Positions 13,298-55,516 of a stretch of DNA of 64,000 nt are shown in pieces. Numbering within the stretch: the first letter of the stretch is position 1; the number at the start of each line of letters is the position of its first letter. The stretch is from contig JAJRWY010000312.1 in NCBI GenBank assembly GCA_024276575.1, positions 1,161-65,160 on the forward strand. Reading direction: 5' to 3'. Position numbers and translations under genes: made by a program. A model generated the notes under the pieces. The model was given only the letters and a program-made list of their open reading frames with translations. It was not told the DNA's origin and did not search any database. The DNA comes from Candidatus Binatota bacterium (GTDB lineage: Bacteria; Desulfobacterota; Binatia; UBA1149; CAITLU01).

Positions 13298-13300
13298 GAA

Positions 13301-14131
13301 TTGGAACTGCTGGCTCTCGAGTTTGCTTGCTTTGCTTACCTTACGGCTGCGGCTGCCTACATGACAGGCATAGCCTATCCATCGGATTGGACGCGGCGTT
13401 TGGGGCCCTGGGCGCTGGGAACGGCCTTTGTTCTGCAATCTCTTTCCGTCGTCCTACACGTCATCGATACCGGCGTGATCCCGGTCGAAGGGTTTACTGA
13501 GGGACTCGCATTCTTCGCTTGGCTTCTGGTTGCCACCTACGTCTTCGTACAGCGCAAGCAGGAGGTGTCAGTACTGGCTGCGGCAATAGCACCGATGGCT
13601 TTCCTGTTTACTCTGCTGGCGATCGAGTTTTATTCCGAAAGGACGGTGCTGCCGGAGTCATGGCAGACTCCATGGCTGACGGTGCATGTAACCCTGGCTT
13701 TTCTCGGCAACGCGGTGTTTGGCCTCGCCTTTGTCGTCAGCCTCGTCTACCTGGTCCAGGAACGACTGCTCAAATCTCACCGCAGGGCTTGGATGATCCG
13801 CCGCTTGCCCGCTCTGGAAACTATGGACAGGCTCGGATACCTGTTCTTGTTCTGGGGCTTCCCCCTGCTTTCGCTGGGAATGGTAAGTGGCGGGGTCTGG
13901 GCTTTGAGTATGCTCGGCAAGTTCTGGACCTGGGAACCGCGCGAGATTCTTTCGGTTATCACCTGGGTTCTGTACGCCGGCTTGCTCGAGTTCCGCCTAG
14001 TCGGCGGCCTGCGGGGTAAGCGAGCCGCCTACCTCACTATTTTGGGCTTTATGGTGCTGGTGGTTTCCTACATCGCCGTCACCCTGATTTCCGTGCCCGG
14101 CGCCAGGCACGGCGGTGTATACACTTCTTGA
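13301..14131 (+). CDS. Cytochrome c assembly (CcsA/HemX) family membrane protein
   Basis: Polytopic membrane protein with the Trp-rich CcsA-type motif WTWEPREILSVITWVLYAG; it sits immediately upstream of hemA, as hemX does in hemAXCDBL operons. Confidence 0.7.
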   Translation: MELLALEFACFAYLTAAAAYMTGIAYPSDWTRRLGPWALGTAFVLQSLSVVLHVIDTGVIPVEGFTEGLAFFAWLLVATYVFVQRKQEVSVLAAAIAPMAFLFTLLAIEFYSERTVLPESWQTPWLTVHVTLAFLGNAVFGLAFVVSLVYLVQERLLKSHRRAWMIRRLPALETMDRLGYLFLFWGFPLLSLGMVSGGVWALSMLGKFWTWEPREILSVITWVLYAGLLEFRLVGGLRGKRAAYLTILGFMVLVVSYIAVTLISVPGARHGGVYTS

Positions 14132-14143
14132 GGAAGCCGGGTA

Positions 14144-15418
14144 GTGTCACGCCAACTATCGATACTGGGGCTGAATCACCGCACTGCGCCGGTCGAGCTG
14201 CGCGAGAAGCTGGCCATGACCGAAGGCCGCGGCGAAGGCGTGCTCGCGTCTCTTCTTACTCACGACCACATAGAGGAAGTGGTGTTGCTCTCCACCTGCA
14301 ATCGGGTCGAGATTGTCTACTGCAGCCGCGAAGGTCCGATTGAGACTGAGGAGATGACCGGCTTCCTAGTCGAGGGCACCGGGCTGAGTGTGGATGAATG
14401 CGTGCCTTACCTTTACAGTTTCGAGAACCGGGAAGCGGTCAGGCATCTGTTCCGTGTGGCCTCTAGCCTGGACTCCATGGTTGTGGGCGAGCCGCAGATC
14501 CTCGGCCAAATGAAGGAGCAGTTTGACGCGTCGGTGGACGCGCATAGTGCCGGTCCTGTACTTCACCGTGTCTTTCACAAGAGTTTCTCGGTGGCCAAGC
14601 GGGTGCGTTCGGAAACCGGAATCGCCTCGAGAACGGTTTCGGTCGCCTCCACGGCGGTGGATCTGGCCAGTCATATCTTCGAGAGCCTGGAGGGCCGGAC
14701 CGTGCTGCTGATCGGCGCCGGCGACATGGGGGAGACTGCCGCGCGCCATTTCCAGGGCGCGGGGGTCAAGGACATCATGGTGGCCAACCGCACTTTTGAA
14801 AACGGCGTAGCCCTGGCCAGGGAGTTGGGAGGGACGCCGATTCCGCTCGAGCGCCTGTCCAACTACTTGCCGCTCGCCGACCTAGTGGTGGGTTCAGCCG
14901 GGGGTGGGGAGATGCTCAGCGCCAAGGAGGTCAAGGGCCTCATGCGTGAGCGCAAGGGCCGTGCGGTATTCTTCATAGATGTCGCGGTTCCCCGCAACTT
15001 CGATCCTGCGATAAACAAGATCGACGGCGCTTATCTTTACGACATGGACGACCTCTCGTCGGTGGTAGAGGAGAACCTCGAGGAAAGGCAGCGTGAGGCG
15101 GTAAAAGGCGAGGCCATAGTGGAGGGGGAGGTCGACCATTTCTGGTTGTGGTTCGAGAAACTCGGGGTAATTCCCACGATCGTTGCTTTGCGTGAGTATG
15201 CCGAGGAGATTCGCAATCAAGAACTGGAGCGTACCGTTGCCAAGCTCAACGGCATCAGCGAGGAAGACAGGATACGTATAGACCATATGACTCGTTCTAT
15301 CGTCAATAAACTACTGCATAGGCCGACCAGCGTATTGAAACGTGAAGTTCGCCCGGATGAAGAAACTCGTATGTTGAGCGCGGTTCGCAAGCTTTTTTCC
15401 TTGGAGGACGAACTGTGA
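14144..15418 (+). CDS. hemA: Glutamyl-tRNA reductase
   Basis: Signature LSTCNRVEIVY (catalytic Cys) and the NADPH-binding motif LLIGAGDMGE. Confidence 0.92.
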   Translation: MSRQLSILGLNHRTAPVELREKLAMTEGRGEGVLASLLTHDHIEEVVLLSTCNRVEIVYCSREGPIETEEMTGFLVEGTGLSVDECVPYLYSFENREAVRHLFRVASSLDSMVVGEPQILGQMKEQFDASVDAHSAGPVLHRVFHKSFSVAKRVRSETGIASRTVSVASTAVDLASHIFESLEGRTVLLIGAGDMGETAARHFQGAGVKDIMVANRTFENGVALARELGGTPIPLERLSNYLPLADLVVGSAGGGEMLSAKEVKGLMRERKGRAVFFIDVAVPRNFDPAINKIDGAYLYDMDDLSSVVEENLEERQREAVKGEAIVEGEVDHFWLWFEKLGVIPTIVALREYAEEIRNQELERTVAKLNGISEEDRIRIDHMTRSIVNKLLHRPTSVLKREVRPDEETRMLSAVRKLFSLEDEL

Positions 15419-16359
15419 AGCTTCGTGTGGGTACGCGGAGGAGCCCCCTTGCCTTGGCCCAGGCCGGCCAAGGTATGCGCTCGGTAGTGGACAAGGCCGG
15501 GGGCGGTGAGTGGGAGTTGATTGAGATGGTCACTACCGGTGACCGCGTTCAGGACCGTCCGTTGCGCGACGTCGGAGGTAAGGCCCTGTTCGTGCGTGAG
15601 CTTGACGATGCCCTGCTGCGTGGAGATGTCGATTGCGCCATTCATTCGCTGAAAGATGTCCCCAGCGATTTGCCGGCCGGCATCGTAATTGCCGCAGTGC
15701 TCGAACGTGCCGACGTGCGTGATCTGTTGATCAGCAAACGGGGCCTGGCGCCGGCGGAGCTTGCGCCGGGGGCGCTGGTCGGCACCACTAGTTTGAGGCG
15801 TGCATCGCAACTGCTGGCCGTAAACCCGCAGGTGAAAGTCGAAACCATACGAGGCAATGTAGCCACGCGCTTGGGGCGCTTGATGGATGGGGATTTCGAC
15901 GCGACCTTTTTGGCTGCTGCGGGTATCGCGCGGCTCGGTGCCGACCTCGGAGCGGCAAAAGCCCTAGCATTAGATCCTTGGGAGTTTATTCCTGCTCCCG
16001 GGCAGGGGGCGCTGGCCATTACTGCACGTGAAGACGACCGGAAATGCAGGGATTATCTGGCTATGGCCGAGGATGGGGCGGCGCGTGCGGCGGTTGAGGC
16101 GGAGCGCGCGCTGGCGAGAGTTTTCGGCGGCGGTTGCCATCTGCCCATCGGCGTCTATGCCGAGGCCGGGCCGGGCAGCTTAAGGATGATCGCGGTCGTG
16201 GTTTCATCTGATGGGCGCCGTTTGCTGCGCGACGAGGCTTCAGGCGAGGCTAGTCACGCGGCTGCCGTGGGTGAGGCTTTAGGCCGGCGTATGCTGGAAA
16301 ACGGCGGTGCTGAGATCGTTGCCGAAGCGGAAGCGGCTGCAGCTGGGGGGCTGGTCTGA
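15415..16359 (+). CDS. hemC: Hydroxymethylbilane synthase (porphobilinogen deaminase)
   Basis: N-terminus LRVGTRRSPLALAQA; 314 aa; overlaps the hemA stop by 4 nt. Confidence 0.9.
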   Translation: MKLRVGTRRSPLALAQAGQGMRSVVDKAGGGEWELIEMVTTGDRVQDRPLRDVGGKALFVRELDDALLRGDVDCAIHSLKDVPSDLPAGIVIAAVLERADVRDLLISKRGLAPAELAPGALVGTTSLRRASQLLAVNPQVKVETIRGNVATRLGRLMDGDFDATFLAAAGIARLGADLGAAKALALDPWEFIPAPGQGALAITAREDDRKCRDYLAMAEDGAARAAVEAERALARVFGGGCHLPIGVYAEAGPGSLRMIAVVVSSDGRRLLRDEASGEASHAAAVGEALGRRMLENGGAEIVAEAEAAAAGGLV

Positions 16360-16376
16360 GCGGGCGGGTCTATCTT

Positions 16377-17852
16377 GTGGGTGCGGGGCCCGGAGATCCC
16401 GGCCTGCTGACTCTTCGCGGGAAAGAGGCCCTCGAGCGGGCTGATGTAGTCCTCTATTACGCGCTAGCGAACTCCCGCCTGCTCGATTTTGCCCCCGCCG
16501 GGGCTGAACGCATACTCGTCGGACATCGCCACGGTCAGGAGACGGTCGGGCAGAACAGCATCGAGGAGATGCTGGTGGACTACGCTCGACGCGGTAAGAG
16601 CGTGGTTCGGTTGAAGGGCGGAGACCCCTTTGTATTTGGCCGGGGCGCGGAAGAAGCCCAGGCTTGTGCGATTGCGGGGGTGCCATTTTCGGTGATACCC
16701 GGCGTGAGTTCGGCCTCGGCCGCTCCCGCCTATGCAGGCATAGCCCTGACCCACCGTGACCTGTCTTCTTCGTACACAGTGGTGACCGGCCGTCCGGGAC
16801 GCAACCGGGACGGTGAAGAGGTAGAGGCCGACTGGGAATCTTTGGCGCGAGGTGGCGGTACTTTGGTACTGCTGATGGCGATGACGCGAATCTCAGAGAT
16901 CTCCGCGAAGCTAATCGGTGCCGGTATGTCTGCGGAAACTCCTGCGGCTGCGGGTCGCTGGGGAACTCTGCCCCGGCAAAAGACAGTGACCGGATGTCTC
17001 GGAGATATTGCGAATACGGCCGCCGCGGAGTTGATACGGCCGCCGGTGGTTTTCGTGATAGGAGACGTGGTGCGGCTCGCTGAAAGCATCTACTGGTACG
17101 AGAAACTGCCACTGTTCGGGCGTCGCATCGTGGTCACCCGCGCCCGCCATCAAGCTGCGGAATTTTCGCGTCGTCTGGAGGAATCCGGTGCCTGGGTGCT
17201 CGAGTATCCGACCATAGAGATCCGGCGGCTCGAGATAGCCGATAGCCGTCTGGACGAGGTTGCGGGTGCGGATTGGCTCTTGTTCAGCAGTGTCAACGGG
17301 GTCGAGCATTTCTTCGCGAGTTATCTCGCAGCCGGGCGTGACCTGCGCGAGCTTGCCGGCGTAGGAATTGCCGCTATCGGACCGGCCACCGCCGCGGCGG
17401 TGAAGCGGCGTGGCCTGAAGGTGGACGTGCAGCCTTTAGAGTATCGAGCGGAGGCCTTGCTCGAAGCCTTGGGGGAAGTCCGCGGAATGCGGATGATACT
17501 GGCGCGGGCCAAGGTGGCTCGTGAGGTGCTGCCCGAACAGCTCCGGGCGCGCGGCGCCGAAGTCACGGTGCTTCCGGTCTACCAGACCGTGGTGCCGCCT
17601 GATTCTTCGCAGTTCACGGAGTTCGGCGAAGTCGACATGGTTACTTTTACCAGCGCGAGTACCGTAGGGAACTTCGACCGTATAAACGGAGGACGGGCCG
17701 CCGAACTCCTGGCCGGAGTCAAGGTCGCGGCGATCGGACCGATTACCGCTGCGGCTCTCAGGGACAAGGGTATTGGGGTCGACGCCATGCCGCACGATTA
17801 TACGATTCCCGCGCTAGCCGCCGAGATAGAGCGCTGCTTTGCAAATGGCTAA
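16377..17852 (+). CDS. Uroporphyrinogen-III C-methyltransferase / uroporphyrinogen-III synthase fusion
   Basis: N-terminal SUMT domain ([15 protein letters not shown]...[15 protein letters not shown]) followed by a HemD-like C-terminal half of about 240 aa. Confidence 0.85.
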
Positions 17853-17875
17853 GCGCTAAACTAGCATTTTGCATC

Positions 17876-18844
17876 ATGCCTTTTCCTGAGCAACGGCCTC
17901 GAAGACTACGTCGCAACGAAACCATACGCCGTATGGTTCGCGAAACTTCTGTGGGTAGCGACGATCTCATGCTGCCGCTTTTCGTGGTTCCTGGTAGCAG
18001 CGTGGAAAATGAAGTGGCTTCGATGCCCGGAGTGTTTCAGCAATCGGTCGATAAAGTGGTGGAGACCGCCAGGCGTGCCGCCGGTCTCGGAATTCCCGCG
18101 GTGCTGCTGTTCGGTATTCCTGAGCACAAGGACCCGCGGGGCAGCGAAGCCTGGCGACGGGACGGAGTCGTGCAGAACGCTGTGCGGGCGATCAAGGAGG
18201 CGGTCCCGGAGCTATGTGTAACGACCGATGTCTGTCTTTGCGAGTATACCGACCACGGGCACTGTGGAGTACTATCCGGCGATAGTGTCGACAATGACGA
18301 AACCTGCGAGCTATTGGTTGCCGAAGCGGTTTCTCACGCCGAAGCAGGAGCCGATCTCATCGCGCCTTCGGATATGATGGATGGACGTGTGGACGCGATC
18401 AGGGAAGGACTCGACGACAAAGGTTTCGAGGAGATTCCGATAATGTCTTATGCCGCCAAGTACTGTTCGGGTTTTTATGGACCCTTCCGGGACGCGGCGG
18501 AGTCGGCTCCGCGCTTCGGCGACCGGCGCTCATACCAGATGGACCCGTCCAACTCCGACGAAGCGTTGCTCGAGGTCGAGCTTGATATCGAGGAAGGCGC
18601 CGACATTCTGATGGTGAAACCGGCGATGCCTTACCTCGACATAATCCGCCGGGTCAAGGACGAGTTTCAACGTCCACTGGCCGCCTACCAGGTCAGCGGT
18701 GAGTTCGCGATGATAAAAGCGGCGGCGGCGAGGGGATGGCTTGATGAGCCGCGTGTGGTTGCCGAAAGCCTGACTGCGATAAAGCGTGCGGGGGCGGACA
18801 TCATAATTAGTTATTTCGCGTTGGATTTCGCGAAGGGGGTTTGA
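17876..18844 (+). CDS. hemB: Porphobilinogen synthase (delta-aminolevulinate dehydratase)
   Basis: N-terminus [15 protein letters not shown], Schiff-base lysine context, 322 aa. Confidence 0.92.
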
Positions 18845-31397: not shown

Positions 31398-31703
31398 ATG
31401 TGGCCTTTCGACAATAGCTTCTATGAGGAAATATCGGCTCGGTTCGAAACTCTGCTCAAGGACGGTGAGGACGCCGGAAATACCAATGATCTGTCGGCTT
31501 TGCTTGCTCCGGTGGATCCTTTCAACCGTTCACCCTTGTTTACACCGGTCGTGAAAGCTCTGGGCGTCGCTGCGTTGGTAGCAATGACCGGGCTTGCCGC
31601 AGCCGGTTTAGTCGTGGCCTTCGTTGCTTTCCTCGGTCTTTACTTCTTGCTTACCGAAGTATTCGGTTACGAGCTTTCTCTGGCACCGCTGCAACCGATG
31701 TAG
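31398..31703 (+). CDS. Small hypothetical membrane protein
   Basis: 101-aa ORF with a C-terminal hydrophobic helix, positioned 5 nt after the preceding gene. Confidence 0.4.
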   Translation: MWPFDNSFYEEISARFETLLKDGEDAGNTNDLSALLAPVDPFNRSPLFTPVVKALGVAALVAMTGLAAAGLVVAFVAFLGLYFLLTEVFGYELSLAPLQPM

Positions 31704-32332
31704 ATTGCGTCTTGCCGTACGGCGAGACCGAGTATTAGAGCACAGGCGACGGCTGCCGCATCGCATGCCGCCACCGCGTGCCGCCACTGGCGCAGGTGCT
31801 TGTCGTAGCCACCGGCCTGCCGGCTGCGGTCTGAATAACGCGCGGGGAAATCGAGACCGGATGGTCCGTGATCTTGCGTTCGACGGTGGCTTGGCAAGGC
31901 GCCGTAGTTACGACAATCGCTAAACAGATCAGGAAGCGGTGCCTGTGGATGCACTCCGCAAACGAAACCGCAACCACCGCCATCCGGCTCAAAAGTGTAC
32001 CATACAATCGGTACCGAAGTTTTGCGGGCATGTTCGATTTGGTTCAGATCCGAATGCTCGACTCCCGCTACTATGTAGCAGGCGATAGAAGTGGATGTTT
32101 GTGTAGCTTTGCGACCTCGTCCCCGGAGGCTTTCAATGCCTGGACCATCGCTGCGCGAGGATACGCTGACCCCCGCTGCTCTCAAGTAAAGGGATGCTTG
32201 TTCCACGCCGCGAGGGTGCCCGAGCAGTACCACTGTCGCCGCCAGTAACTTTCCCTGGCCTTCCGCACCGATGCCGGGGATGATGATCTGTCGCGCATAG
32301 CGTTCAATGCTCTCATCATCGAGAGTAGCCAT
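31667..32332 (-). CDS. Divergent E1-like (ThiF/MoeB N-terminal motif) protein with a degenerate nucleotide-binding loop; possibly a pseudogene
   Basis: N-terminus ERYARQIIIPGIGAEGQGKLLAATVVLLG matches the E1 first helix and beta-1, but GxGxxG is replaced by GHPRGV. The remainder resembles no known family. Confidence 0.35.
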   Translation of the reverse strand: MATLDDESIERYARQIIIPGIGAEGQGKLLAATVVLLGHPRGVEQASLYLRAAGVSVSSRSDGPGIESLRGRGRKATQTSTSIACYIVAGVEHSDLNQIEHARKTSVPIVWYTFEPDGGGCGFVCGVHPQAPLPDLFSDCRNYGALPSHRRTQDHGPSGLDFPARYSDRSRQAGGYDKHLRQWRHAVAACDAAAVACALILGLAVRQDAIYIGCSGARESS

Positions 32333-32359
32333 ATCGCTAGCGAGGTCGTAGAGCAGATC

Positions 32360-32599
32360 TCATTCTATGACGTTCTTCTCTATCGGCTCGACAGTGACGC
32401 CTTGCTCGGCGATCCATCGTACGGCCCGGTCAATCTCGTCTTGCTCACCTTCGAGTTCGAGAGCCATGATGCCCACATGCTCAGAAATCGAAGCACCGCG
32501 TATATTGGTGACCACGCGGAACTTGTGTCCGACGTGGTAAACGATCGGCTCCTTTATCTTCTCTTGGCTGTAGGTCAGGTAGAAACGTTGAAGTGTCAT
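32360..32599 (-). CDS. NIL-domain protein
   Basis: The 79-aa ORF matches the NIL domain pattern seen at the MetN C-terminus (VVTNIRGASISEHVGIMALELEG...VEPI); it overlaps the cysM-like stop by 4 nt. Confidence 0.6.
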   Translation of the reverse strand: MTLQRFYLTYSQEKIKEPIVYHVGHKFRVVTNIRGASISEHVGIMALELEGEQDEIDRAVRWIAEQGVTVEPIEKNVIE

Positions 32600-33579
32600 T
32601 GGTTCTCCTCCGCGGCGGCGAGTTCATGGCGGTCGCGCCAGCCGGTCCACAGATTCGTAGATAAGTAGCGGTCGCCAAAATCGGGTAGCACTACCACCAC
32701 GCACCCGGATTGCAACTCCGCAGCCACTTCCAGTGCTGCGACTACCGCGGCACCGGAGGACTGTCCGACCAGCAGACCTTCTTTGGCGGCCAACTCGTAA
32801 ACCATCTCGTAAGCGGCATCGGTAGCCACACCCACCTTGCGGTCGAAGCCGGATTCGTCGTAAATACCCGGCACGATCGAGCTGCCCATGTGCTTCAAGC
32901 CTTCTATCCCGTGGAAGGCGTCGTCGGGCTCCACGGCTATTATTTCGACCTCAGGCTTGCGCGATCTCAAGTAGCGGCCGCAGCCCATTACGGTTCCGCT
33001 GGTACCGATCGTGGCGAGAAAGTGAGAGACGCGGCCGGCAGTTTGCTCCCAGATCTCGGGTCCTGTGGTCAGGAAGTGGGCCTCCGGATTGGCCGGGTTG
33101 TAGTACTGGTCGGGTTTGAAGTACGCGTCGGGATCGGCGTCGAACATCTTTTTGGCCAAGACGATGGAGCCGTCGGACCCTTCCATCGGATCGGACTCGA
33201 CTATTTCGGCGCCGTAAGCCGCAATCACCCGCAATCGTTCGCGTGAGGCGTTGGCGGGTATCACTAATTTTACCGGATATCCCAGCGCAGCGCCGATCAT
33301 CGCCAGCGCGATGCCGGTGTTGCCGGAAGTAGAATCGAGAATGGTTTTGCCGGGGCGTAAGTGTCCGTCTTCCAATCCACGACGCACCATGTTCCAGGCC
33401 GGGCGGTCTTTGACCGAACCGCCGGGGTTGAAGCCCTCGACTTTGGCGTACACTTCTACACCGCCGGCCAAGTGCGGGGTTACACCTCGCAGTTGGAGCA
33501 ACGGTGTGTCGCCGATCAAGTCGAGTATGCCTGTGGCCTCCGCCTCATTAAGGGTCGGCTGTTGGCGAGTCCGGTGCAC
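32596..33579 (-). CDS. Cysteine synthase family PLP enzyme (CysM/CysK-like)
   Basis: PLP-lysine motif GGSVKDRPAWNMV, IGDTPLLQL substrate-loop region and GTGGT motif. The start is uncertain: GTG at 33579, or TTG at about 33519. Confidence 0.85.
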   Translation of the reverse strand: MHRTRQQPTLNEAEATGILDLIGDTPLLQLRGVTPHLAGGVEVYAKVEGFNPGGSVKDRPAWNMVRRGLEDGHLRPGKTILDSTSGNTGIALAMIGAALGYPVKLVIPANASRERLRVIAAYGAEIVESDPMEGSDGSIVLAKKMFDADPDAYFKPDQYYNPANPEAHFLTTGPEIWEQTAGRVSHFLATIGTSGTVMGCGRYLRSRKPEVEIIAVEPDDAFHGIEGLKHMGSSIVPGIYDESGFDRKVGVATDAAYEMVYELAAKEGLLVGQSSGAAVVAALEVAAELQSGCVVVVLPDFGDRYLSTNLWTGWRDRHELAAAEENQ

Positions 33580-33854
33580 GCGCCGCCGGCGATAGCGGGA
33601 ACGATGGAGATTTCGTCGCCGTCTTTGACGGCGGACTCCAGGTCATCAAGAAAGCGAATGTCATCGCCGTTCACGTAAACATTTACGAAACGCCGTACTG
33701 AACCGTCGCGTTCGCAGATGCGCTCCTTGAGGCCTGGATGGGCTGCCTCGACGCTGTCGAGAACCGCGGCCACGGTCGAGCCTTCTGCGTCGACGGCTTC
33801 GTTGCCGCCTGTAAACTTTCTCAGGGGTGTGGGGATTCTTACCCGGACTGCCAT
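33516..33854 (-). CDS. MoaD/ThiS/CysO-family sulfur-carrier protein with a 21-residue extension after the Gly-Gly
   Basis: Beta-grasp carrier sequence MAVRVRIPTPLRKF...GDEISIVPAIAGG, then ACTGLANSRPLMRRRPQAYST before the stop. A strong RBS (AGGAGG) lies 7 nt upstream of the ATG. The tool ORF has a spurious 77-aa leader. Confidence 0.75.
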   Translation of the reverse strand: MAVRVRIPTPLRKFTGGNEAVDAEGSTVAAVLDSVEAAHPGLKERICERDGSVRRFVNVYVNGDDIRFLDDLESAVKDGDEISIVPAIAGGACTGLANSRPLMRRRPQAYST

Positions 33855-33891
33855 GTTGTAGTTCCTCCTAAGTCGAATTCCGCCGATCCTA

Positions 33892-35184
33892 TCACGAACC
33901 GGTGGCCGGAGAAGCAATCGTGGAAGCCTGATCGCCGCCGGCTGTCTTGCCGGCTTCAAGACGCTCGTAAAGACGGTCGAATTCGTCGAGACGTGCTGCG
34001 ATATCGTGGGTGACCGGAACCGAATCACGAACCGCCTCGAGGGTCTTGTAGCCGTTGCCGGTAATAGAGATGACGATCGACTCATCTCGGGGTATGCGGC
34101 CTTGCTCTATGAGTTTCTTGGTAACCGCCACCGTGGTGCCCCCGGCCGGCTCGGTAAACACACCTTCCGTACGCGCCAGTAGTTTGATTGCTTCCACTAT
34201 TTCTTCGTCGCTAGCTGATTCACCCCATCCTCCGGAATCCCTGACCGCTCCGAGAACGTAATAGCCGTCGGCCGGGTTGCCGATCGCGATCGACTTGGCG
34301 ATGGTATGAGGCTTTACCGGTTCGATAAGGTCGGTTCCCCGGTGAAGGGCGTTGACGACCGGAGCGCAACCGGCGGCTTGCGCGGAGTATATCTTGAATC
34401 CGCTCTGCTCGACCAAGCCTACCCGCTGCAGCTCTTCAAAGGACTTGGCGACTTTGGGCAAGATGGTGCCGCCGGCGGTAGGAACGACGATGTGTTGGGG
34501 GAGCTTCCAGCCGAGTTGTTCGGCCACTTCGAATCCGTAAGTTTTGGCTCCTTCGGTGTAAAAAGGCCGCAGGTTGATGTTTGCGAAAGCCCAGCCGTAC
34601 TTGTCCGCGATCTCGGTGCACAGGCGGTTAACGTCGTCATAATTGCCGGAGATCGCGACCGGGACCGGGTTGTATATGGCCGATCCCACCACCTTGCCTT
34701 GTTCGAGGTTGTCGGGGATGAAGATGAAGCACCGCAGGCCGGCGCGTGCTGCATGGGCGGAAACGGAATTGGCTAGGTTGCCGGTAGAGGCGCATGCGAC
34801 GGTTTCGAAGCCGAACTCGACCGCTTTGGTCAGCGCGACCGAGACTACGCGGTCCTTGTAGGAGAAGGTCGGGTGGTTGACCGAATCGTCTTTTACGTAG
34901 AGTTCCGAGACGCCGAGCACTTCTGCCAAGCGATCGGCTTTGAGCAAGGGAGTAAAACCTGAATACAGGCCGATACGCGGCTCGGACTCCACCGGAAGCA
35001 ACTCGCGATATCTCCACAGGTTGGGTGGCCTCGCTTCAATGGTCTTGCGATCGACCGCAGCCGATATCTTGTCATAGTCGTATTCTACTTCGAGGGGGCC
35101 AAAGCAGTATTCACAGACGTGGTAGGGCTTGAGTTCGTAAGCCTCGCCACATTCACGGCACTTGAGGCCTTTTACAAAAGACAT
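33892..35184 (-). CDS. Threonine synthase family PLP enzyme with an N-terminal zinc ribbon
   Basis: CRECGE...CEYCFG zinc ribbon, PLP-lysine motif FSYKDR, RBS AAGGAGA; 431 aa counted from MSFVKGLKC. Confidence 0.85.
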   Translation of the reverse strand: MSFVKGLKCRECGEAYELKPYHVCEYCFGPLEVEYDYDKISAAVDRKTIEARPPNLWRYRELLPVESEPRIGLYSGFTPLLKADRLAEVLGVSELYVKDDSVNHPTFSYKDRVVSVALTKAVEFGFETVACASTGNLANSVSAHAARAGLRCFIFIPDNLEQGKVVGSAIYNPVPVAISGNYDDVNRLCTEIADKYGWAFANINLRPFYTEGAKTYGFEVAEQLGWKLPQHIVVPTAGGTILPKVAKSFEELQRVGLVEQSGFKIYSAQAAGCAPVVNALHRGTDLIEPVKPHTIAKSIAIGNPADGYYVLGAVRDSGGWGESASDEEIVEAIKLLARTEGVFTEPAGGTTVAVTKKLIEQGRIPRDESIVISITGNGYKTLEAVRDSVPVTHDIAARLDEFDRLYERLEAGKTAGGDQASTIASPATGS

Positions 35185-35198
35185 GGTAGTTATCTCCT

Positions 35199-35957
35199 TC
35201 AGCGGTCGATGCCGGGCGCTGCAGCGGCGGGCTCGTAACCGCGGGGTCGTGAACGGGTTTCCCCCGAGCGGGAGCATCGCGGGCAAGCGGGATCCCTGGG
35301 GAAATATACATGGCGCCAACGGCACCCTGACAATTCATAGATATTCATGCGGCCGGGACACAGGCTTTTGTCTCCACCAAGGTAACGAAGCGCGTCTTGC
35401 GCTTGTGCGGTTCCCACCAAGCCGGCCACTGGTGCGAGAATGCCCATAGCTGAACAGCCGCCGTCGGCTTCCTGCGGGTGGTCGTCGGGGAAAGCGCATG
35501 CGAGGCAGGCCGACACGCCCGGCACCACGGTCATCCATTGGCCGGTGGTTCTGATCACACCGCCGTAACAGAAAGCGGTGCCGGTCGAGACTGCAACGGC
35601 GTTTATCATGAATTTCGTGGCCGGGTCGTCACAAGCGTCGATCACGAAATCATGAGAGGAAACGAGGCTCTCGGCGTTGCCGGTGTTCAACGTATCTTCG
35701 ATGGGACGAATTTCAGTGGTAACAGGGCCGCCGGCGGATGCGGCTAGAGCCTTACGCGCGGCCTCGGCCTTGGGTGCTCCGACGTCGCTGTCGCCGAACA
35801 AGACCTGCCGCTGCAGGTTCGAAAGCTCGATGCGGTCGGGGTCGATAATCGTGAGTTTGGCAACTCCGGCGCCCACGAGCATGCGCGCGGCAGCGCAACC
35901 GAGGGCGCCGACGCCCACCAACAGAACCGAATCTTTTGTTTGCTGCTGCAAGTACAA
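35199..35957 (-). CDS. ThiF/MoeB-family E1-like adenylyltransferase; start codon uncertain and canonical N-terminal helix absent
   Basis: LLVGVGALGCAAARMLVGAGV...ELSNLQRQ and C-terminal CxxC pairs (CLAC, CPRC). The reading frame runs directly out of the riboswitch terminator U-tract. Confidence 0.8.
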   Translation of the reverse strand: MYLQQQTKDSVLLVGVGALGCAAARMLVGAGVAKLTIIDPDRIELSNLQRQVLFGDSDVGAPKAEAARKALAASAGGPVTTEIRPIEDTLNTGNAESLVSSHDFVIDACDDPATKFMINAVAVSTGTAFCYGGVIRTTGQWMTVVPGVSACLACAFPDDHPQEADGGCSAMGILAPVAGLVGTAQAQDALRYLGGDKSLCPGRMNIYELSGCRWRHVYFPRDPACPRCSRSGETRSRPRGYEPAAAAPGIDR

Positions 35958-35990
35958 AAAAACCTCTTCCAGGCGGGATAAGGAAGAGGT
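35954..35990 (-). terminator. Intrinsic terminator forming the riboswitch expression platform
   Basis: On the minus strand the sequence reads CCUCUUCC-UUAUCCCGCCU-GGAAGAGG-UUUUUUU: a perfect 8-bp stem followed by a U7 tract. The 5' arm can pair with the upstream AUAAGGAGAGG as an antiterminator. Confidence 0.7.
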
Positions 35991-36007
35991 ACTGGGTCGC
36001 GGCGACA

Positions 36008-36165
36008 GGCCTCTCCTTATCTTTCACCCTCTTTGCATTTGCGTGAACTCGATTACGCGCTCACCGCAACGCTAAGGTGCGGGACTTAGCACCTGCCGCC
36101 CGCTTGCGCAGGCCGGTTGCTGTGGCTTCACAGGGCCCATTCCCTCCGCCACTCTGAATAAGGAA
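36008..36165 (-). promoter_or_regulatory. SAM-I (S-box) riboswitch aptamer
   Basis: The minus-strand RNA reads UCCUUAUUCAGAGUGGCGGAGGGAAUGGGCCCUGUGAAGCCACAGCAACC...GGUGCUAAGUCCCGCACC...AUAAGGA. This matches the SAM-I consensus CUUAUCAAGAG-GGCGGAGGGA-UGGCCC-AUGAA-CC-GCAACC / GGUGCUAA-UCC-GCA, including the kink-turn and the J3/4 pseudoknot region. Confidence 0.8.
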
Positions 36166-36170
36166 CGGAA

Positions 36171-36200
36171 AGGGTAGCGGCACTAGGCCTCACTGTCAAA
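36171..36200 (-). promoter_or_regulatory. Putative sigma-70-type promoter driving the riboswitch
   Basis: On the minus strand, TTGACA is followed by 17 nt and then TACCCT, placed immediately 5' of the aptamer P1 helix. Confidence 0.45.
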
Positions 36201-53278: not shown

Positions 53279-55516
53279 TTGTTTATGAGCGGCGCACCTA
53301 GGCCGGACATCTCCATTTCGCGCGAGGAAAGGGCGCGCCGACGCCGTGAGGTTGCGGTGATTCTCGCGGCCGGTCTTGCGGTGGTGTTCTTTGCCGTGTG
53401 GGAAATCGGCCGGCCGGCTGGGCGTGGAGCCACCGGTAACGTTGTCTCCTTCCTACTGGTAAACCTCAACATAGTTCTGCTTCTAGTCGTGGCGTTCCTG
53501 GTTTTGCGAAACATCGTGAAGCTGGTGATTGACCGGCGCCGGCGTGTCCCGGGTAGCCATCTTCGCGGGCGGCTGGTCTTTGCTTTCGTTACCATTGCGC
53601 TATTCCCGGCGGGTTTGATGCTCGTCATTTCGTATCAATTCGTGACCAGCAACATCGATGATTGGCTCGACAGCGAGGTCGAGCAGTCGCTCGAAGGTGC
53701 CTGGGAACTGGCCCATACCTACTATCGGGATTCTGCGGATGCGGCGCTTGCGCATGCGCGGGCCCTGGCTGCGGAGGCTGTGGAGAAGCGGCTGCTGCAG
53801 CCGTCTTCACGGACGAAATTGCGAGAGTTGGTTCTCGAACACCAGCGCGCTTACAAGCTGGGAACCATCCAGATAGTCAACTCCTCAGGCGAACAGGTAC
53901 TGGCTTTGTTCAACGAATCCACTCCTACCGGGATGCCGCTATATCCGGACGCTGAATTGATGTCAGAGAACCTCGAAGGGCGTGAGGCTACCAAAGTAGA
54001 GGCTTACGGCGAAAGTGACGTGATCAGCGGTGCGGTGCCGATACTCGACAGTAAAGGAAAAGTGCTGGGTGCGGTGGTGGTTGATTATTTCGTTGAGCGC
54101 AGTATCCGGCGCTGGAGTGAAGACATACTGAAATCCTTCAGCGAGTTCCGCCAGCTAAAGCTCAGCAAACAGCCTTTCAAGAATCTCTACGCGATTACTC
54201 TTGCTCTGGCCGCGGTCGCGGTAGTGTTCTCGGCTACATGGCTGGGTATTTATATGGCCCGGGGGGTTACCGACCCCATTGGGCGGTTGGCGGAAGCTAC
54301 TGAACGGGTTGCCGGCGGTGACTGGGAGGTTCGGCTCGAAGAAGCAGGCGGTGACGAAGTCGGCATGCTGGTCAGTGCTTTCAACACCATGACTTCACAG
54401 CTCAAGGCAACCCACGATGATCTCGATGAGAGGCGCCGTTACATCGAGAATGTGCTCGGACATATCGAAGCGGGTGTCGTGTCCATCGATGAAGAGGGGC
54501 GCATCGGTACCGTGAACTCAGCCGCAGTGTCGTTGTTGGGCCTCGACGCTGAAGGGCTTGCGGGGCTAGCTGCGGTAGAGACGTTTCAGGAGGCCGGTTA
54601 CTCGGAAATGGCGTCGCTGTTGAAAGATTTGAGTGCCGGAGTCGTAGCTTCCGGCACCCGTATCAACGTCAAGCGGGAACAGGAAGGGCGGACGCTACTG
54701 GTTACTGCGACTGAGTTGAAGCGCGTGAGTGGTGAGCGGGCGGGCTTCGTTCTTTTTGTCGAAAACGTATCACAGATAGTCGAAGTTCAGAGGATGGAGG
54801 CCTGGCGCGAGGTTGCTAGGCGTATCGCCCATGAGATCAAGAATCCACTGACTCCCATCCAACTGTCGGCGCAAAGGCTGGGCAGGCGCTTGCGTTCACG
54901 GCTCGGCGGGGAAGACGCCGAGCTACTGGAGCGCAGCGTGGAAACGATCGTCTCTCAAGTAGACACATTGAAGCAGTTGGTCAACGAGTTCTCGCGCTTT
55001 GCGCAAAAGTCGGAAGGAGACAAGCGCCTACACGATTTGAACCAGTTGGTCGAGGAGACGATCCCTTTGTACAGCGAGTCGCGCCCTGACATCAAAGTGG
55101 AATTCTCCCGTGCCGAAGAGCTTCCGGCACTGATGTTGGACCGGCAGTCGGTAAAGCGCGTTCTGATCAATCTGCTCGATAATGCGGTGGCGGCTCTTTC
55201 GGCGGACGAGGCCGTGCGTGAAAGCGGCGTCGAGCCGCAAATAGAACTTCGGACCTCTTTTGATGAAAGAACCTCGCGCGTGGTTCTCGAAGTCGCGGAC
55301 AACGGCCCAGGAATCGCTGCCAAGGACAAACCGCGGGTATTCGAGCCGTACTTCTCGACCAAGGACGATGGGACCGGCCTCGGCCTGGCTATTGTTGCTT
55401 CGGTGGCTGCCGACCACCAAGCCTTCGTTCGAGTCAGGGACAACCATCCGCGAGGCAGCCGTTTCGTGATAGAATTTCCCATCGTGCCCAAGGAGAGAGA
55501 GGTCCGAGATGCCTGA
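53279..55516 (+). CDS. NtrY-like sensor histidine kinase (2 TM, HAMP, PAS, HisKA, HATPase)
   Basis: Two N-terminal TM helices, HAMP and PAS regions, H-box HEIKNPLTPIQLSAQRL, N-box LLDNAVAAL, G1 DNGPGI and G2 GTGLGLAIV. Confidence 0.85.
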   Translation: MFMSGAPRPDISISREERARRRREVAVILAAGLAVVFFAVWEIGRPAGRGATGNVVSFLLVNLNIVLLLVVAFLVLRNIVKLVIDRRRRVPGSHLRGRLVFAFVTIALFPAGLMLVISYQFVTSNIDDWLDSEVEQSLEGAWELAHTYYRDSADAALAHARALAAEAVEKRLLQPSSRTKLRELVLEHQRAYKLGTIQIVNSSGEQVLALFNESTPTGMPLYPDAELMSENLEGREATKVEAYGESDVISGAVPILDSKGKVLGAVVVDYFVERSIRRWSEDILKSFSEFRQLKLSKQPFKNLYAITLALAAVAVVFSATWLGIYMARGVTDPIGRLAEATERVAGGDWEVRLEEAGGDEVGMLVSAFNTMTSQLKATHDDLDERRRYIENVLGHIEAGVVSIDEEGRIGTVNSAAVSLLGLDAEGLAGLAAVETFQEAGYSEMASLLKDLSAGVVASGTRINVKREQEGRTLLVTATELKRVSGERAGFVLFVENVSQIVEVQRMEAWREVARRIAHEIKNPLTPIQLSAQRLGRRLRSRLGGEDAELLERSVETIVSQVDTLKQLVNEFSRFAQKSEGDKRLHDLNQLVEETIPLYSESRPDIKVEFSRAEELPALMLDRQSVKRVLINLLDNAVAALSADEAVRESGVEPQIELRTSFDERTSRVVLEVADNGPGIAAKDKPRVFEPYFSTKDDGTGLGLAIVASVAADHQAFVRVRDNHPRGSRFVIEFPIVPKEREVRDA

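What the first reader, a model, noticed from the sequence alone, without database searches (positions are those of the whole stretch)
31667..36200. Putative SAM-regulated, protein-thiocarboxylate-dependent homocysteine/methionine pathway with an unusual enzyme set
One riboswitch-controlled transcription unit encodes an E1-like ThiF/MoeB adenylyltransferase, a ThrC-family PLP enzyme with an N-terminal zinc ribbon, a MoaD/CysO-type sulfur-carrier protein, a CysM-like PLP enzyme and a NIL-domain protein (the domain found at the methionine-responsive C-terminus of MetN); a degenerate E1-like ORF follows these. Known carrier-protein routes are CysO-CysM-Mec in Mycobacterium (cysteine from O-phosphoserine) and HcyS-HcyF-HcyD-MetY in Wolinella (homocysteine). 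Here the nucleophile acceptor would be a ThrC-like and/or CysM-like enzyme, and control is by SAM rather than by cysteine or threonine. That points to homocysteine synthesis from O-phosphohomoserine, with O-phosphoserine as an alternative, using a carrier thiocarboxylate. I cannot identify this five-gene combination, with the NIL-domain gene included, as a described system.
Basis: partly seen in the sequence, partly recalled or inferred. Interest (0 to 1): 0.85.

Follow-up and report, generated by a model that had tools for sequence, protein, structure and literature searches.

The report
SAM-controlled carrier-protein homocysteine/cysteine operon
This is a SAM-riboswitch-controlled operon for making homocysteine (and probably cysteine) with sulfur delivered on a small ubiquitin-like carrier protein; the core was described in Streptomyces in 2024. 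The version here adds a NIL-domain protein and what looks like a two-part activating enzyme, neither of which I found described.

Summary
On the minus strand a SAM-I riboswitch (36164-36014, 75.8 bits) with an intrinsic terminator precedes six genes: a ThiF/MoeB E1, a zinc-ribbon ThrC-like enzyme, a ThiS/MoaD carrier, a CysM-like enzyme, a 79-aa NIL protein and a diverged E1-like ORF.

Riboswitch plus ThrC-like plus carrier is the MetM/MetO route from O-phosphohomoserine to homocysteine (Hasebe 2024; listed in GapMind 2026). An actinomycete riboswitch-metM-metO locus is 52% and 49% identical to the window's pair.

The window comes from a Candidatus Binatia genome, and the six-gene order recurs in about 60 related loci. 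Three findings go beyond the published core:
- The NIL domain belongs to the carrier system. In other lineages it is fused to the carrier's C-terminus or to the JAMM hydrolase.
- The first E1 lacks the N-terminal arginine-finger helix. The "degenerate" ORF keeps only that helix and is conserved, so a heteromeric E1 is plausible.
- No JAMM/Mec peptidase lies in the window or near any Binatia operon, although the carrier carries a C-terminal tail.

Verdict: a new variant of a known kind, of moderate interest.

The parts
36014..36164 (-). SAM-I (S-box) riboswitch aptamer
   Evidence: Rfam RF00162, 75.8 bits, E=5.5e-16, model positions 1-108 of 108. My own covariance model gives 95.7 bits here and finds the same element upstream of 66 of 82 related operons.
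35956..36021 (-). Expression platform. The terminator hairpin CCUCUUCC...GGAAGAGG (35989-35963) is followed by U7 (35962-35956). The 3' strand of P1, GAUAAGGAGAGG (36021-36010), can instead pair with the 5' arm of the terminator to form an antiterminator.
   Evidence: Sequence read. Folding gives -14.2 kcal/mol for the terminator (z=-3.6, 0 of 200 shuffles fold as well). The antiterminator is the minimum-free-energy fold once the P1 3' strand is included.
35199..35957 (-). E1-1: catalytic ThiF/MoeB-type adenylyltransferase, without the N-terminal arginine-finger helix and without a rhodanese domain. The exact start is uncertain because the first in-frame TTG overlaps the terminator U-run.
   Evidence: Pfam ThiF 1.9e-60, covering profile positions 20-237 of 238. 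Residue 5 aligns to MoeB residue 27 and ThiF residue 24. The equivalents of MoeB R73, K86 and D130 and both CxxC pairs are present. Only 57 nt separate the aptamer from the ORF.
33892..35184 (-). MetM-like enzyme: a ThrC-family PLP enzyme with an N-terminal four-cysteine zinc ribbon, proposed to be a carrier-thiocarboxylate-dependent homocysteine synthase acting on O-phosphohomoserine
   Evidence: PALP 5.5e-64; NF006050 312 bits. 52% identical to the riboswitch-linked Nonomuraea metM-like gene but at most 39% identical to annotated thrC genes on plasmid records. 70-87% identical across Binatia.
33516..33854 (-). MetO/CysO-like sulfur-carrier protein (ThiS/MoaD fold). It ends in ...IVPAIAGG followed by a 21-residue tail that overlaps the CysM start.
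   Evidence: Pfam ThiS 7e-19; NCBIfam SAMP1 and MoaD. 49% identical to the Nonomuraea MetO. Relatives have tails of 0 residues (15 loci), 1 residue (48 loci) or 2-41 residues (13 loci) after GG.
32596..33579 (-). CysM-like fold-type-II PLP enzyme (beta-replacement), proposed to be a carrier-dependent cysteine synthase
   Evidence: PALP 1.3e-69. TIGR01138 cysM scores 361 bits, below its cutoff of 394. 38% identical to M. tuberculosis CysM. A conserved Lys sits at the position of Mtb Arg220, and there is a C-terminal tail as in Mtb CysM. In non-Binatia relatives the gene sits between the carrier and a JAMM gene.
32360..32599 (-). Free-standing NIL-domain protein (79 aa, no cysteine)
   Evidence: PF09383 6e-15; matches the MetN C-terminal domain. 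Present in 61 of 69 loci that have enough downstream sequence. Homologues are fused to ThiS or to Prok-JAB in other lineages.
31667..32332 (-). E1-2 (ORF6): diverged E1 paralogue that keeps the N-terminal RYxRQ arginine-finger helix but has lost the nucleotide-binding loop and the catalytic motifs
   Evidence: Residues 1-58 align to MoeB 1-58, ThiF and Uba4 and to intact Binatia E1s (hhalign probability 99.1%). About 20 homologues share invariant R11, Y12, R14, Q15. AlphaFold2 model: pLDDT 77.7, pTM 0.74; its best solved-structure matches are ThiF, PaaA and MoeB.

Best explanation
This is a SAM-repressed operon of a Candidatus Binatia bacterium. It incorporates sulfur into homocysteine, and probably cysteine, through a protein thiocarboxylate.

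1. Regulation (shown by sequence and folding). With SAM bound, P1 of the SAM-I aptamer forms and the downstream hairpin plus U7 terminates transcription. Without SAM, the P1 3' strand pairs with the terminator's 5' arm and all six genes are transcribed.

2. Carrier maturation (inferred). The MetO-like carrier must be trimmed to expose Gly-Gly. The peptidase is not encoded here.

3. Carrier activation (inferred). E1-1 adenylates the terminal glycine. Sulfide or a persulfide from an unlinked donor then converts the adenylate to MetO-COSH.

4. Homocysteine formation (inferred from the published MetM/MetO pathway and the CysO and HcyS precedents). The ThrC-like MetM eliminates phosphate from O-phospho-L-homoserine. 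MetO-COS- adds at C-gamma to give a MetO-homocysteine adduct, which a Mec-type hydrolase resolves.

5. Cysteine formation (inferred). The CysM-like enzyme does the equivalent beta-replacement on O-phosphoserine or O-acetylserine with the same carrier.

6. NIL (inferred from gene fusions and the MetN precedent). The NIL protein is a stoichiometric partner of the carrier/hydrolase module. It most likely binds methionine or homocysteine and gives post-translational feedback.

7. E1-2 (inferred from complementary loss). E1-2 pairs with E1-1 as an inactive subunit and supplies in trans the arginine-finger helix that E1-1 has lost.
For: Riboswitch and platform. The riboswitch is conserved in 66 of 82 related loci and in 7 of 8 loci checked with Rfam.

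MetM/MetO identity:
- A Nonomuraea locus carries SAM riboswitch, zinc-ribbon ThrC-like gene and 91-aa carrier ending in GG. It is 52% and 49% identical to the window's pair.
- Annotated thrC genes on plasmid records are at most 39% identical.
- The published pathway and its frequent misannotation as threonine synthase are summarised.

Operon conservation: the order E1, MetM, MetO, CysM, NIL, E1-2 recurs in most of 82 loci. Of 69 loci with enough downstream sequence, 60 have MetO, CysM and NIL.

CysM as a carrier-dependent enzyme:
- It forms a distinct clade, 50-80% identical across phyla. It is about 40% identical both to the CysK-like paralogues encoded in the same clusters and to Mtb CysM.
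- A basic residue occupies the position of Mtb Arg220.
- In L027, L048, L085 and L086 the CysM gene neighbours both the carrier gene and a Prok-JAB gene, in the manner of mec-cysO-cysM.

NIL as part of the system:
- ThiS-NIL fusions occur in at least 6 representatives at 50% clustering, with an intact ...AIAGG followed by a K/R-rich linker.
- L089 encodes MetM, a ThiS-NIL fusion, a Rhodanese-ThiF E1 and a JAB.
- JAB-NIL fusions occur in L027 and L085.
- The minimal Planctomycetota cluster L079 is MetM, MetO, NIL.
- The NIL domain is reported to bind methionine and regulate activity (PMC12068725).

E1 pair:
- E1-1 begins at MoeB residue 27 and E1-2 covers MoeB residues 1-58.
- Of the loci whose E1-1 lacks RYxRQ, 52 have a downstream ORF with RYxRQ (one more has an E1-like ORF without a clear motif) and 5 have none. 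Of 11 loci with a full-length E1-1, 10 have no second E1.
- The E1-2 N-terminus is 51% pairwise identical, against 23% for the rest of the protein.
- The ThiF Arg11 and MoeB Arg14 fingers act from the neighbouring subunit, and yeast Tcd1-Tcd2 is a heterodimer precedent (PMC13139853).
Against: - No biochemistry exists for any Binatia protein.
- I could not obtain the S. albulus MetM sequence or the Hasebe paper. Membership therefore rests on context and on an uncharacterised actinomycete orthologue.
- The ThrC-like protein also passes NCBI's threonine-synthase models. I could not check whether the genome has a separate thrC.
- No JAMM/Mec, rhodanese, TusA or cysteine desulfurase lies in the 64-kb window. 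No JAMM lies within about 8 kb of any Binatia operon. Two required steps therefore have no assigned gene.
- The residue at the Mtb Arg220 position is Lys rather than Arg, and the cysM equivalog cutoff is missed, so the CysM substrate is open.
- The arginine finger is reported as non-essential in MoeB and ThiF, so E1-1 may work alone.
- The loci with a full-length E1 and no second E1 form a single clade. The co-variation therefore reflects few independent events.
- Only residues 1-58 of E1-2 are detectably homologous to E1s by sequence.
Confidence: 0.8

Rival explanations
1. Only the MetM branch uses the carrier. The CysM-like enzyme is an ordinary sulfide- or thiosulfate-dependent cysteine synthase, co-regulated so that cysteine supply matches methionine demand. 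S-box control of sulfur-assimilation genes in Firmicutes would be a parallel (from my own knowledge).
For: The best solved matches are E. coli and Salmonella CysM at 240-242 bits, above Mtb CysM at 199 bits. The PLP lysine and the TSGNTG loop are standard. Some Binatia operons (L026, L030, L043, L062) lack CysM and NIL but keep E1, MetM, MetO and E1-2, so CysM is separable from the carrier module.
Against: Clusters such as L027, L085 and L086 already encode a separate CysK-like enzyme next to an Rrf2 regulator, and place the CysM-like gene between the carrier and the JAMM gene, in the mec-cysO-cysM pattern. The operon clade is distinct from those CysK paralogues and shares the short loop and C-terminal tail of Mtb CysM.
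Confidence: 0.3
2. The last ORF (E1-2) is a non-functional relic of a duplicated E1 gene. E1-1 works as a homodimer without an arginine finger.
For: There is no Pfam hit. Only 58 residues align to E1s. The window copy carries a 33-residue insertion relative to its relatives and lacks a Shine-Dalgarno sequence. The finger is reported as dispensable in MoeB and ThiF, and TcdA lacks it.
Against: An ORF with the conserved RYxRQ...GQ segment persists downstream of the operon in 52 loci, across lineages whose MetM proteins are only about 70% identical. It even persists when IS elements have displaced it by 1-5 kb. Columns are invariant across 21 homologues. The AlphaFold2 fold is confident and E1-like. 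Such ORFs are absent exactly from the clade whose E1-1 is full length.
Confidence: 0.3
3. The ThrC-like enzyme is the cell's threonine synthase, or a bifunctional one, and the operon is not primarily a homocysteine route.
For: TIGR00260 thrC scores 282 bits (cutoff 167) and NF006050 scores 312 bits (cutoff 303). A cyanobacterial homologue was reported with threonine-related activities and no clear MetM function in vivo (PMC12172450).
Against: Control is by SAM in 66 of 82 loci. The enzyme is invariably adjacent to a Gly-Gly carrier. It is orthologous to the actinomycete riboswitch-metM-metO module. GapMind notes that MetM is often misannotated as threonine synthase.
Confidence: 0.08
4. The cluster makes a sulfur-containing secondary metabolite or cofactor, as carrier/JAMM systems do for thioquinolobactin, chuangxinmycin or 2-thiosugars, rather than primary amino acids.
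For: ThiS-like carriers, E1s and JAMM enzymes are recurrent in such pathways (for example PMC5925218, listed).
Against: There are no tailoring, export or scaffold genes. The neighbours are housekeeping genes in conserved synteny. The cluster is single-copy and conserved across a whole class. Control by SAM-I is typical of methionine genes.
Confidence: 0.03

Closest known systems
MetM/MetO thiocarboxylate pathway of Streptomyces albulus (Hasebe et al. 2024, AEM 90:e01247-24; steps MetO, MetM, Mec, MoeZ as listed in GapMind 2026)
   Same: A SAM riboswitch precedes a ThrC-homologous enzyme and an adjacent ~90-aa Gly-Gly carrier. O-phosphohomoserine is the proposed substrate. An actinomycete locus with exactly this layout is 52% and 49% identical to the window's pair.
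   Different: Here the E1 is encoded in the operon, lacks a rhodanese domain and appears split into a catalytic and a degenerate subunit. A CysM-like enzyme and a NIL protein are co-transcribed. No Mec/JAMM gene is nearby. The host phylum is Binatota.
CysO-CysM-Mec (with MoeZ) cysteine pathway of Mycobacterium tuberculosis
   Same: The carrier thiocarboxylate acts as nucleophile for a CysM-type PLP enzyme. In non-Binatia relatives the carrier, CysM and JAMM genes are adjacent. The CysM-like protein has a C-terminal tail and a basic residue at the Arg220 position.
   Different: Only 38% identity to Mtb CysM, with Lys instead of Arg220. The carrier is shared with a homocysteine-forming enzyme. 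Control is by SAM. There is no Mec gene in the Binatia operon.
HcyS-HcyF-HcyD-MetY homocysteine pathway of Wolinella succinogenes (recalled from my own knowledge)
   Same: Homocysteine is made from a protein thiocarboxylate, with an E1 and a carrier that has residues after Gly-Gly needing a JAMM peptidase.
   Different: The acceptor enzyme there is MetY (fold type I, using O-acetylhomoserine). Here it is a ThrC-like fold-type-II enzyme presumed to use O-phosphohomoserine.
NIL/ferredoxin plus DUF39 (L-aspartate-semialdehyde sulfurtransferase) homocysteine route of methanogens and Desulfovibrio, and the NIL (C2) domain of MetN
   Same: A NIL domain is attached to a homocysteine- or methionine-related machine. 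NIL is reported to bind methionine and regulate activity.
   Different: There NIL is fused to a ferredoxin or to an ABC ATPase. Here it is free-standing, or in relatives fused to the sulfur carrier or the JAMM hydrolase. The chemistry is also different: a PLP enzyme with a thiocarboxylate.
Heterodimeric E1-type enzymes with one inactive subunit: SAE1-UBA2, NAE1(APPBP1)-UBA3, yeast Tcd1-Tcd2
   Same: One subunit retains the adenylation site. The other is degenerate and supplies the N-terminal arginine finger in trans. SAE1 and APPBP1 chains appear among the structural matches of the ORF6 model.
   Different: Those enzymes are eukaryotic. No heteromeric sulfur-carrier E1 appeared among the bacterial E1 structures and papers I retrieved. 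The interaction here is inferred only from complementary sequence loss.

Membership tests
SAM-I riboswitch (Rfam RF00162) | Covariance-model score above the gathering threshold over the full four-way-junction aptamer | tested here: met
   75.8 bits against 44.4, model positions 1-108 of 108.
SAM-I riboswitch (Rfam RF00162) | An expression platform that couples P1 formation to termination | tested here: met
   A terminator hairpin plus U7, and a mutually exclusive antiterminator with the P1 3' strand. Ligand binding was not tested.
MetM (thiocarboxylate-dependent homocysteine synthase) | ThrC-homologous fold-type-II PLP enzyme | tested here: met
   PALP 5.5e-64; best solved matches are threonine synthases at 1e-55.
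MetM (thiocarboxylate-dependent homocysteine synthase) | Encoded next to a MetO-type Gly-Gly carrier and behind a SAM riboswitch | tested here: met
MetM (thiocarboxylate-dependent homocysteine synthase) | Sequence closer to characterised MetM than to bona fide ThrC | tested here: inconclusive
   52% identity to a riboswitch-linked actinomycete metM-like gene against at most 39% to annotated thrC genes. The S. albulus MetM sequence itself was not available.
MetM (thiocarboxylate-dependent homocysteine synthase) | Converts O-phosphohomoserine plus MetO-COSH to homocysteine | not testable with these tools
   Needs enzyme assays.
MetO/CysO sulfur-carrier protein | ThiS/MoaD beta-grasp fold with a C-terminal Gly-Gly | tested here: met
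   Pfam ThiS 7e-19. ...(I/V)(I/V)PAIAGG ends the domain in 76 of the 79 related carrier genes tabulated. In the window the Gly-Gly is followed by 21 residues.
M. tuberculosis-type CysM (O-phosphoserine, carrier-dependent) | Passes the cysM equivalog model | tested here: not met
   TIGR01138 scores 361.5 bits, below its cutoff of 394.2; NF008735 scores 310.8, below 413.
M. tuberculosis-type CysM (O-phosphoserine, carrier-dependent) | Arg220 for the phosphate of O-phosphoserine (role recalled from the literature, not verified here) | tested here: inconclusive
   A conserved Lys occupies that column in the whole operon clade; the CysK-like paralogues have Gln or Glu.
M. tuberculosis-type CysM (O-phosphoserine, carrier-dependent) | Genomic linkage to a carrier and a Mec-type JAMM hydrolase | tested here: inconclusive
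   Linked to the carrier everywhere. Linked to JAMM only in non-Binatia relatives.
ThiF/MoeB E1 adenylyltransferase (E1-1) | GxGxxG loop, the equivalents of MoeB R73, K86 and D130, and two CxxC zinc motifs | tested here: met
   Alignment to 1jw9_B.
ThiF/MoeB E1 adenylyltransferase (E1-1) | N-terminal RYxRQ helix carrying the arginine finger (MoeB Arg14, ThiF Arg11) | tested here: not met
   The protein starts at MoeB position 27 and Pfam profile position 20. There is no coding room upstream.
ThiF/MoeB E1 adenylyltransferase (E1-2 / ORF6) | Nucleotide-binding loop and catalytic motifs | tested here: not met
   GHPRGV replaces GxGxxG, and there are no SNLxRQ, PK or DxxDN motifs. No Pfam hit; hhalign aligns only columns 1-58.
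ThiF/MoeB E1 adenylyltransferase (E1-2 / ORF6) | E1 N-terminal helix and overall Rossmann-like fold | tested here: met
   RYARQ...GQ is invariant. The model's best structural matches are ThiF, PaaA and MoeB, with TM about 0.5.
NIL domain (PF09383) | Pfam model above the gathering score | tested here: met
   55.3 bits against 24.
Complete carrier cycle (Mec/HcyD-type JAMM hydrolase) | A JAMM/MPN+ peptidase to trim the carrier and release the amino acid | tested here: not met
   None found in the 64-kb window or within about 8 kb of any Binatia operon. One may lie elsewhere in the genome.

The most novel reading that the evidence does not exclude
In this lineage the sulfur-carrier machinery shows two features usually regarded as eukaryotic ubiquitin-system traits.

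(a) The E1 is an obligate heteromer. It combines a catalytic subunit that has lost its arginine-finger helix with a pseudo-enzyme subunit retained essentially to supply that helix in trans.

(b) The NIL domain is a dedicated, stoichiometric partner of the carrier. In many lineages it is made as a carrier-NIL precursor that a JAMM peptidase must cleave after Gly-Gly, as with ubiquitin fusion precursors. It couples carrier availability or adduct hydrolysis to the methionine/homocysteine level.
Probability: 0.3. Interest if true: 0.7.

Novelty: new variant of a known kind. Interest (0 to 1): 0.5.

Why it matters
- Distribution. The recently discovered MetM/MetO route is probably the main methionine entry point for a whole, uncultured, globally common class (Binatia) and occurs in several other phyla. 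These genes are uniformly annotated as "threonine synthase" and "cysteine synthase", so metabolic reconstructions will wrongly call these organisms methionine auxotrophs, or will credit them with a second threonine synthase they do not have.
- NIL domain. The repeated fusions with the carrier and with the JAMM hydrolase give this domain a concrete, testable partner. Its role in homocysteine synthesis has been open since the DUF39/NIL-ferredoxin work.
- E1 pair. The complementary E1 pair is a natural experiment on whether the E1 arginine finger matters. It would also be a bacterial parallel to the origin of heterodimeric eukaryotic E1s.

Tried and rejected
- Exact-sequence look-ups of the window's ThrC-like and NIL proteins, and of the 100%-identical cluster entry P0001, found no contig on record. 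The organism was identified from relatives instead.
- The Hasebe 2024 paper (PMC11497804) is not held. I relied on three papers that summarise it.
- A motif scan for HxHx(6-14)SxxD over all window ORFs of at least 90 aa gave one hit (8299-8865, minus strand). That ORF has no Pfam match at E<=1e-8 and was rejected.
- I considered that the E1-1 N-terminus might be encoded upstream or in another frame. This was rejected: only 57 nt lie between the aptamer and the ORF, and they form the terminator.
- I considered E1-2 to be a pseudogene. This is kept only as a minority rival because of its conservation.
- I considered counting the co-variation between E1-1 truncation and E1-2 presence as many independent events. 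This was rejected because the loci with a full-length E1 form one clade in a MetM tree.
- A profile-profile comparison intended to show full-length homology of E1-2 to E1s aligned only 57 columns.
- I did not attempt a fused-chain structure prediction of E1-1 with E1-2. The tool returns no contacts and accepts only native sequences.
- A literature search for NIL together with thiocarboxylate, CysO, JAMM or MoaD listed no paper that mentions the NIL domain.

Full report
WHAT IS THERE. All features lie on the minus strand between 36164 and 31667. Rfam finds a single family in the whole 64-kb window: a full-length SAM-I riboswitch at 36164-36014 (75.8 bits against a gathering score of 44.4, E=5.5e-16). 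Directly downstream lies a 9-bp hairpin followed by seven U residues (35989-35956; -14.2 kcal/mol, z=-3.6). The 3' strand of P1 (GAUAAGGAGAGG) can alternatively pair with the 5' arm of that hairpin. This is the classic S-box OFF switch.

Six ORFs follow:
- E1-1 (35957-35199): Pfam ThiF 1.9e-60.
- A ThrC-like PLP enzyme (35184-33892): 430 aa with a four-cysteine N-terminal ribbon that solved threonine synthases lack.
- A ThiS/MoaD carrier (33854-33516).
- A CysM-like PLP enzyme (33579-32596).
- A 79-aa NIL protein (32599-32360).
- A 221-aa ORF (32332-31667) with no Pfam hit, whose first ~56 residues match the N-terminus of MoeB/MoeZ/ThiF.

The neighbours are unrelated: PolA, an anti-sigma-like protein and two unknown ORFs on one side; a tyrosine phosphatase, BamD, ArsA-like ATPases, LapB and NadD on the other. 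The rest of the window holds housekeeping genes. It contains no thrC, metY/metB, cysK, JAMM, rhodanese or desulfurase.

WHERE IT COMES FROM AND HOW CONSERVED IT IS. The ThrC-like protein has thousands of homologues, the best 120 of them 76-100% identical, and the few that carry a source name come from Candidatus Binatia, "Deltaproteobacteria" and similar MAGs. A scan of one genome per species returned 80 loci. Nearly all are Binatia, plus Latescibacterota, Limnocylindria and a Tepidisphaeraceae genome.

A tblastn map shows the order E1, ThrC-like, carrier, CysM-like, NIL, second E1 in most of them. Of 69 loci with at least 2.5 kb downstream of the ThrC-like gene:
- 60 have carrier, CysM and NIL.
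- 3 lack only NIL.
- 1 (Planctomycetota) has carrier and NIL without CysM.
- 5 have only the carrier.

Rfam confirmed the riboswitch in 7 of 8 diverse loci. A covariance model built from those hits found it immediately upstream of the operon in 66 of 82 loci.

WHAT THE CORE IS. The pair of ThrC-like enzyme and Gly-Gly carrier behind a SAM riboswitch is the MetM/MetO system reported in 2024 for Streptomyces albulus. MetM is a ThrC homologue that converts O-phospho-L-homoserine to homocysteine using MetO thiocarboxylate. Mec matures MetO and MoeZ loads sulfur. I could not read that paper, but three held papers summarise it, including the upstream SAM riboswitch and the frequent misannotation as threonine synthase.

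As a direct comparison, a record of the actinomycete Nonomuraea gerenzanensis carries exactly that layout: a SAM-I riboswitch (68.7 bits), a zinc-ribbon ThrC-like gene and a 91-aa carrier ending in Gly-Gly. These are 52% and 49% identical to the window's proteins. Annotated thrC genes in the same search are at most 39% identical.

THE CysM-LIKE ENZYME. By family chemistry a CysK/CysM-fold enzyme performs beta-replacement, so it cannot be the homocysteine synthase. The question is whether it uses the carrier.
- It misses the cysM equivalog cutoff (361 against 394 bits). It scores slightly better against E. coli CysM than against M. tuberculosis CysM.
- I aligned it with the Mtb CysM sequence, which I recalled from memory and then verified as 100% identical to PDB 3dwg_A. 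The operon-type proteins form their own clade, 50-80% identical across phyla. They are about 40% identical both to Mtb CysM and to the CysK-like paralogues found in the same clusters.
- They carry a conserved Lys where Mtb has Arg220 (the paralogues have Gln or Glu). They share the short loop and C-terminal tail of Mtb CysM.
- In non-Binatia relatives the gene neighbours both the carrier gene and a Prok-JAB gene, as in the mycobacterial mec-cysO-cysM cluster, while a separate CysK-like gene sits beside an Rrf2 regulator.

I therefore favour a carrier-dependent cysteine synthase that shares MetO with MetM. A sulfide-dependent enzyme remains a serious rival.

THE NIL PROTEIN. An exhaustive phmmer search found 611 representatives at E<=0.001. 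Many are free-standing ~80-aa proteins, but several architectures recur:
- ThiS-NIL fusions, in which the carrier domain ends in ...PAIAGG, a 5-25-residue K/R-rich linker follows, and then comes NIL.
- Prok-JAB-NIL fusions.
- Tandem NIL-NIL proteins.

The contexts confirm the link. L089 encodes MetM (58% identical), a ThiS-NIL fusion, a Rhodanese-ThiF E1 and a JAB. L088 encodes TusA, a ThiS-NIL fusion and a ThiF. L027 and L085 encode MetM, carrier, CysM and a JAB-NIL fusion. L086 has the same genes with JAB and NIL separate.

A carrier-NIL fusion cannot be adenylated until it is cleaved after Gly-Gly, so NIL is co-produced with the carrier and released from it. NIL has no cysteine, so it is not a persulfide carrier. 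NIL domains are reported to bind methionine and regulate activity, and a NIL/ferredoxin protein is required in the unrelated DUF39 homocysteine route. My best guess is a methionine- or homocysteine-binding regulatory or adaptor subunit of the carrier/hydrolase module. This is inference. I found no paper connecting NIL with thiocarboxylate systems.

THE TWO E1 GENES. E1-1 aligns to E. coli MoeB from residue 27 and to ThiF from residue 24. It keeps the equivalents of MoeB R73, K86 and D130 and both CxxC pairs. It lacks the N-terminal RYxRQ helix, and the 57 nt upstream are the terminator. It also has no rhodanese domain.

The last ORF is the mirror image. Residues 1-58 align to MoeB 1-58, ThiF and Uba4 and to intact Binatia E1s (hhalign probability 99.1%). 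The GxGxxG loop has become GHPRGV, and the remaining motifs are gone. It is nevertheless a real family:
- About 20 homologues of 150-190 aa share invariant R11, Y12, R14, Q15, G25, Q26 and W111, and a nearly invariant ACDAAA motif.
- The AlphaFold2 model is fairly confident (pLDDT 77.7, pTM 0.74).
- The model's best solved matches are ThiF, PaaA, MoeB and Uba4. The inactive eukaryotic subunits SAE1 and APPBP1 appear lower in the list.

Across loci the pattern is as follows:
- When E1-1 lacks RYxRQ, 52 loci have a downstream ORF with RYxRQ, one more has an E1-like ORF without a clear motif, and 5 have none. Two of those 5 have little sequence to search.
- When E1-1 is full length, 10 loci have no second E1. 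One (L004) has two intact E1s.

The N-terminal 56 residues of the second E1 are 51% pairwise identical, against 23% for the rest of the protein. The arginine finger of ThiF and MoeB acts on the neighbouring subunit, and yeast Tcd1-Tcd2 is a ThiF-family heterodimer in which the inactive partner supplies it. A heteromeric E1 produced by duplication and complementary degeneration is the simplest reading.

There are caveats. The full-length, single-E1 loci form one clade, so there are few independent events. The finger is reported as non-essential in MoeB and ThiF. No interaction has been shown.

GAPS. The carrier ends in Gly-Gly plus 21 residues in the window. Relatives have 0 residues (15 loci), 1 residue (48 loci) or 2-41 residues (13 loci) after Gly-Gly. 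From the DNA, the window's tail looks like loss of an overlapping GTGA start/stop by one substitution (TGA to TGC); this is my inference. Trimming the tail and releasing homocysteine or cysteine from the carrier both need a hydrolase. No JAMM gene lies in the window or within about 8 kb of any Binatia operon. The sulfur donor is also unassigned.

VERDICT. What remains new, as far as I could search, is the Binatia-type operon: a shared carrier for a MetM and a CysM-type enzyme, a NIL protein that fusions tie to the carrier and its hydrolase, and a complementary E1 pair. I rate it a new variant of a known kind, with interest 0.5.

Noticed in passing
window 55509-56780 (+): One ORF combines a response-regulator receiver domain (residues 5-115) with a complete LpxC deacetylase domain (147-412). 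It lies directly after a HAMP histidine kinase gene (53279-55516). This suggests phosphorylation control of the committed step of lipid A synthesis.
   Followed up: no
L027 6316-7101; L085 8001-8762; L089 1253-1768; L088 361-888: NIL domains are fused to a Prok-JAB peptidase (L027, L085) or to the C-terminus of the ThiS-type carrier after an intact Gly-Gly (L088, L089), inside MetM clusters of non-Binatia metagenomic lineages.
   Followed up: yes
window 33516-33581 (-): The carrier ORF reads 21 codons past Gly-Gly into the CysM gene. Most relatives stop at GG or one residue later, and in the one boundary read at the DNA level (L001) the CysM start codon overlaps the carrier's stop by 4 nt. A single TGA-to-TGC change, or an assembly error, would explain the difference.
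   Followed up: partly
L068 10961-11503; L060 10910-11923; also L061, L063, L065, L074: In several Binataceae loci the second E1 gene lies 0.7-4.5 kb downstream of NIL and is still intact. In L068 an IS1595-type transposase zinc-ribbon ORF sits in the gap. The 337-aa ORF in the L060 gap has no Pfam match.
   Followed up: partly
L026, L030, L043, L062: A sub-clade of Binatia has a shorter operon (E1-1, MetM, MetO, E1-2) without CysM and NIL. My model detected no SAM riboswitch there.
   Followed up: no
L004 11555-15975: In the one Binatia locus with two intact E1 genes, the operon continues into a radical-SAM gene, a Na+/sulfate symporter, a Usp gene and an ATP sulfurylase. This ties the cluster to sulfate assimilation.
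   Followed up: no
window 12578-18844 (+): A run of tetrapyrrole genes: a siroheme-synthase-like NAD-binding protein, a cytochrome c assembly protein, HemA, HemC, a uroporphyrinogen methyltransferase/HemD fusion and HemB. Siroheme is the cofactor of sulfite reductase, but no link to the operon was examined.
   Followed up: no
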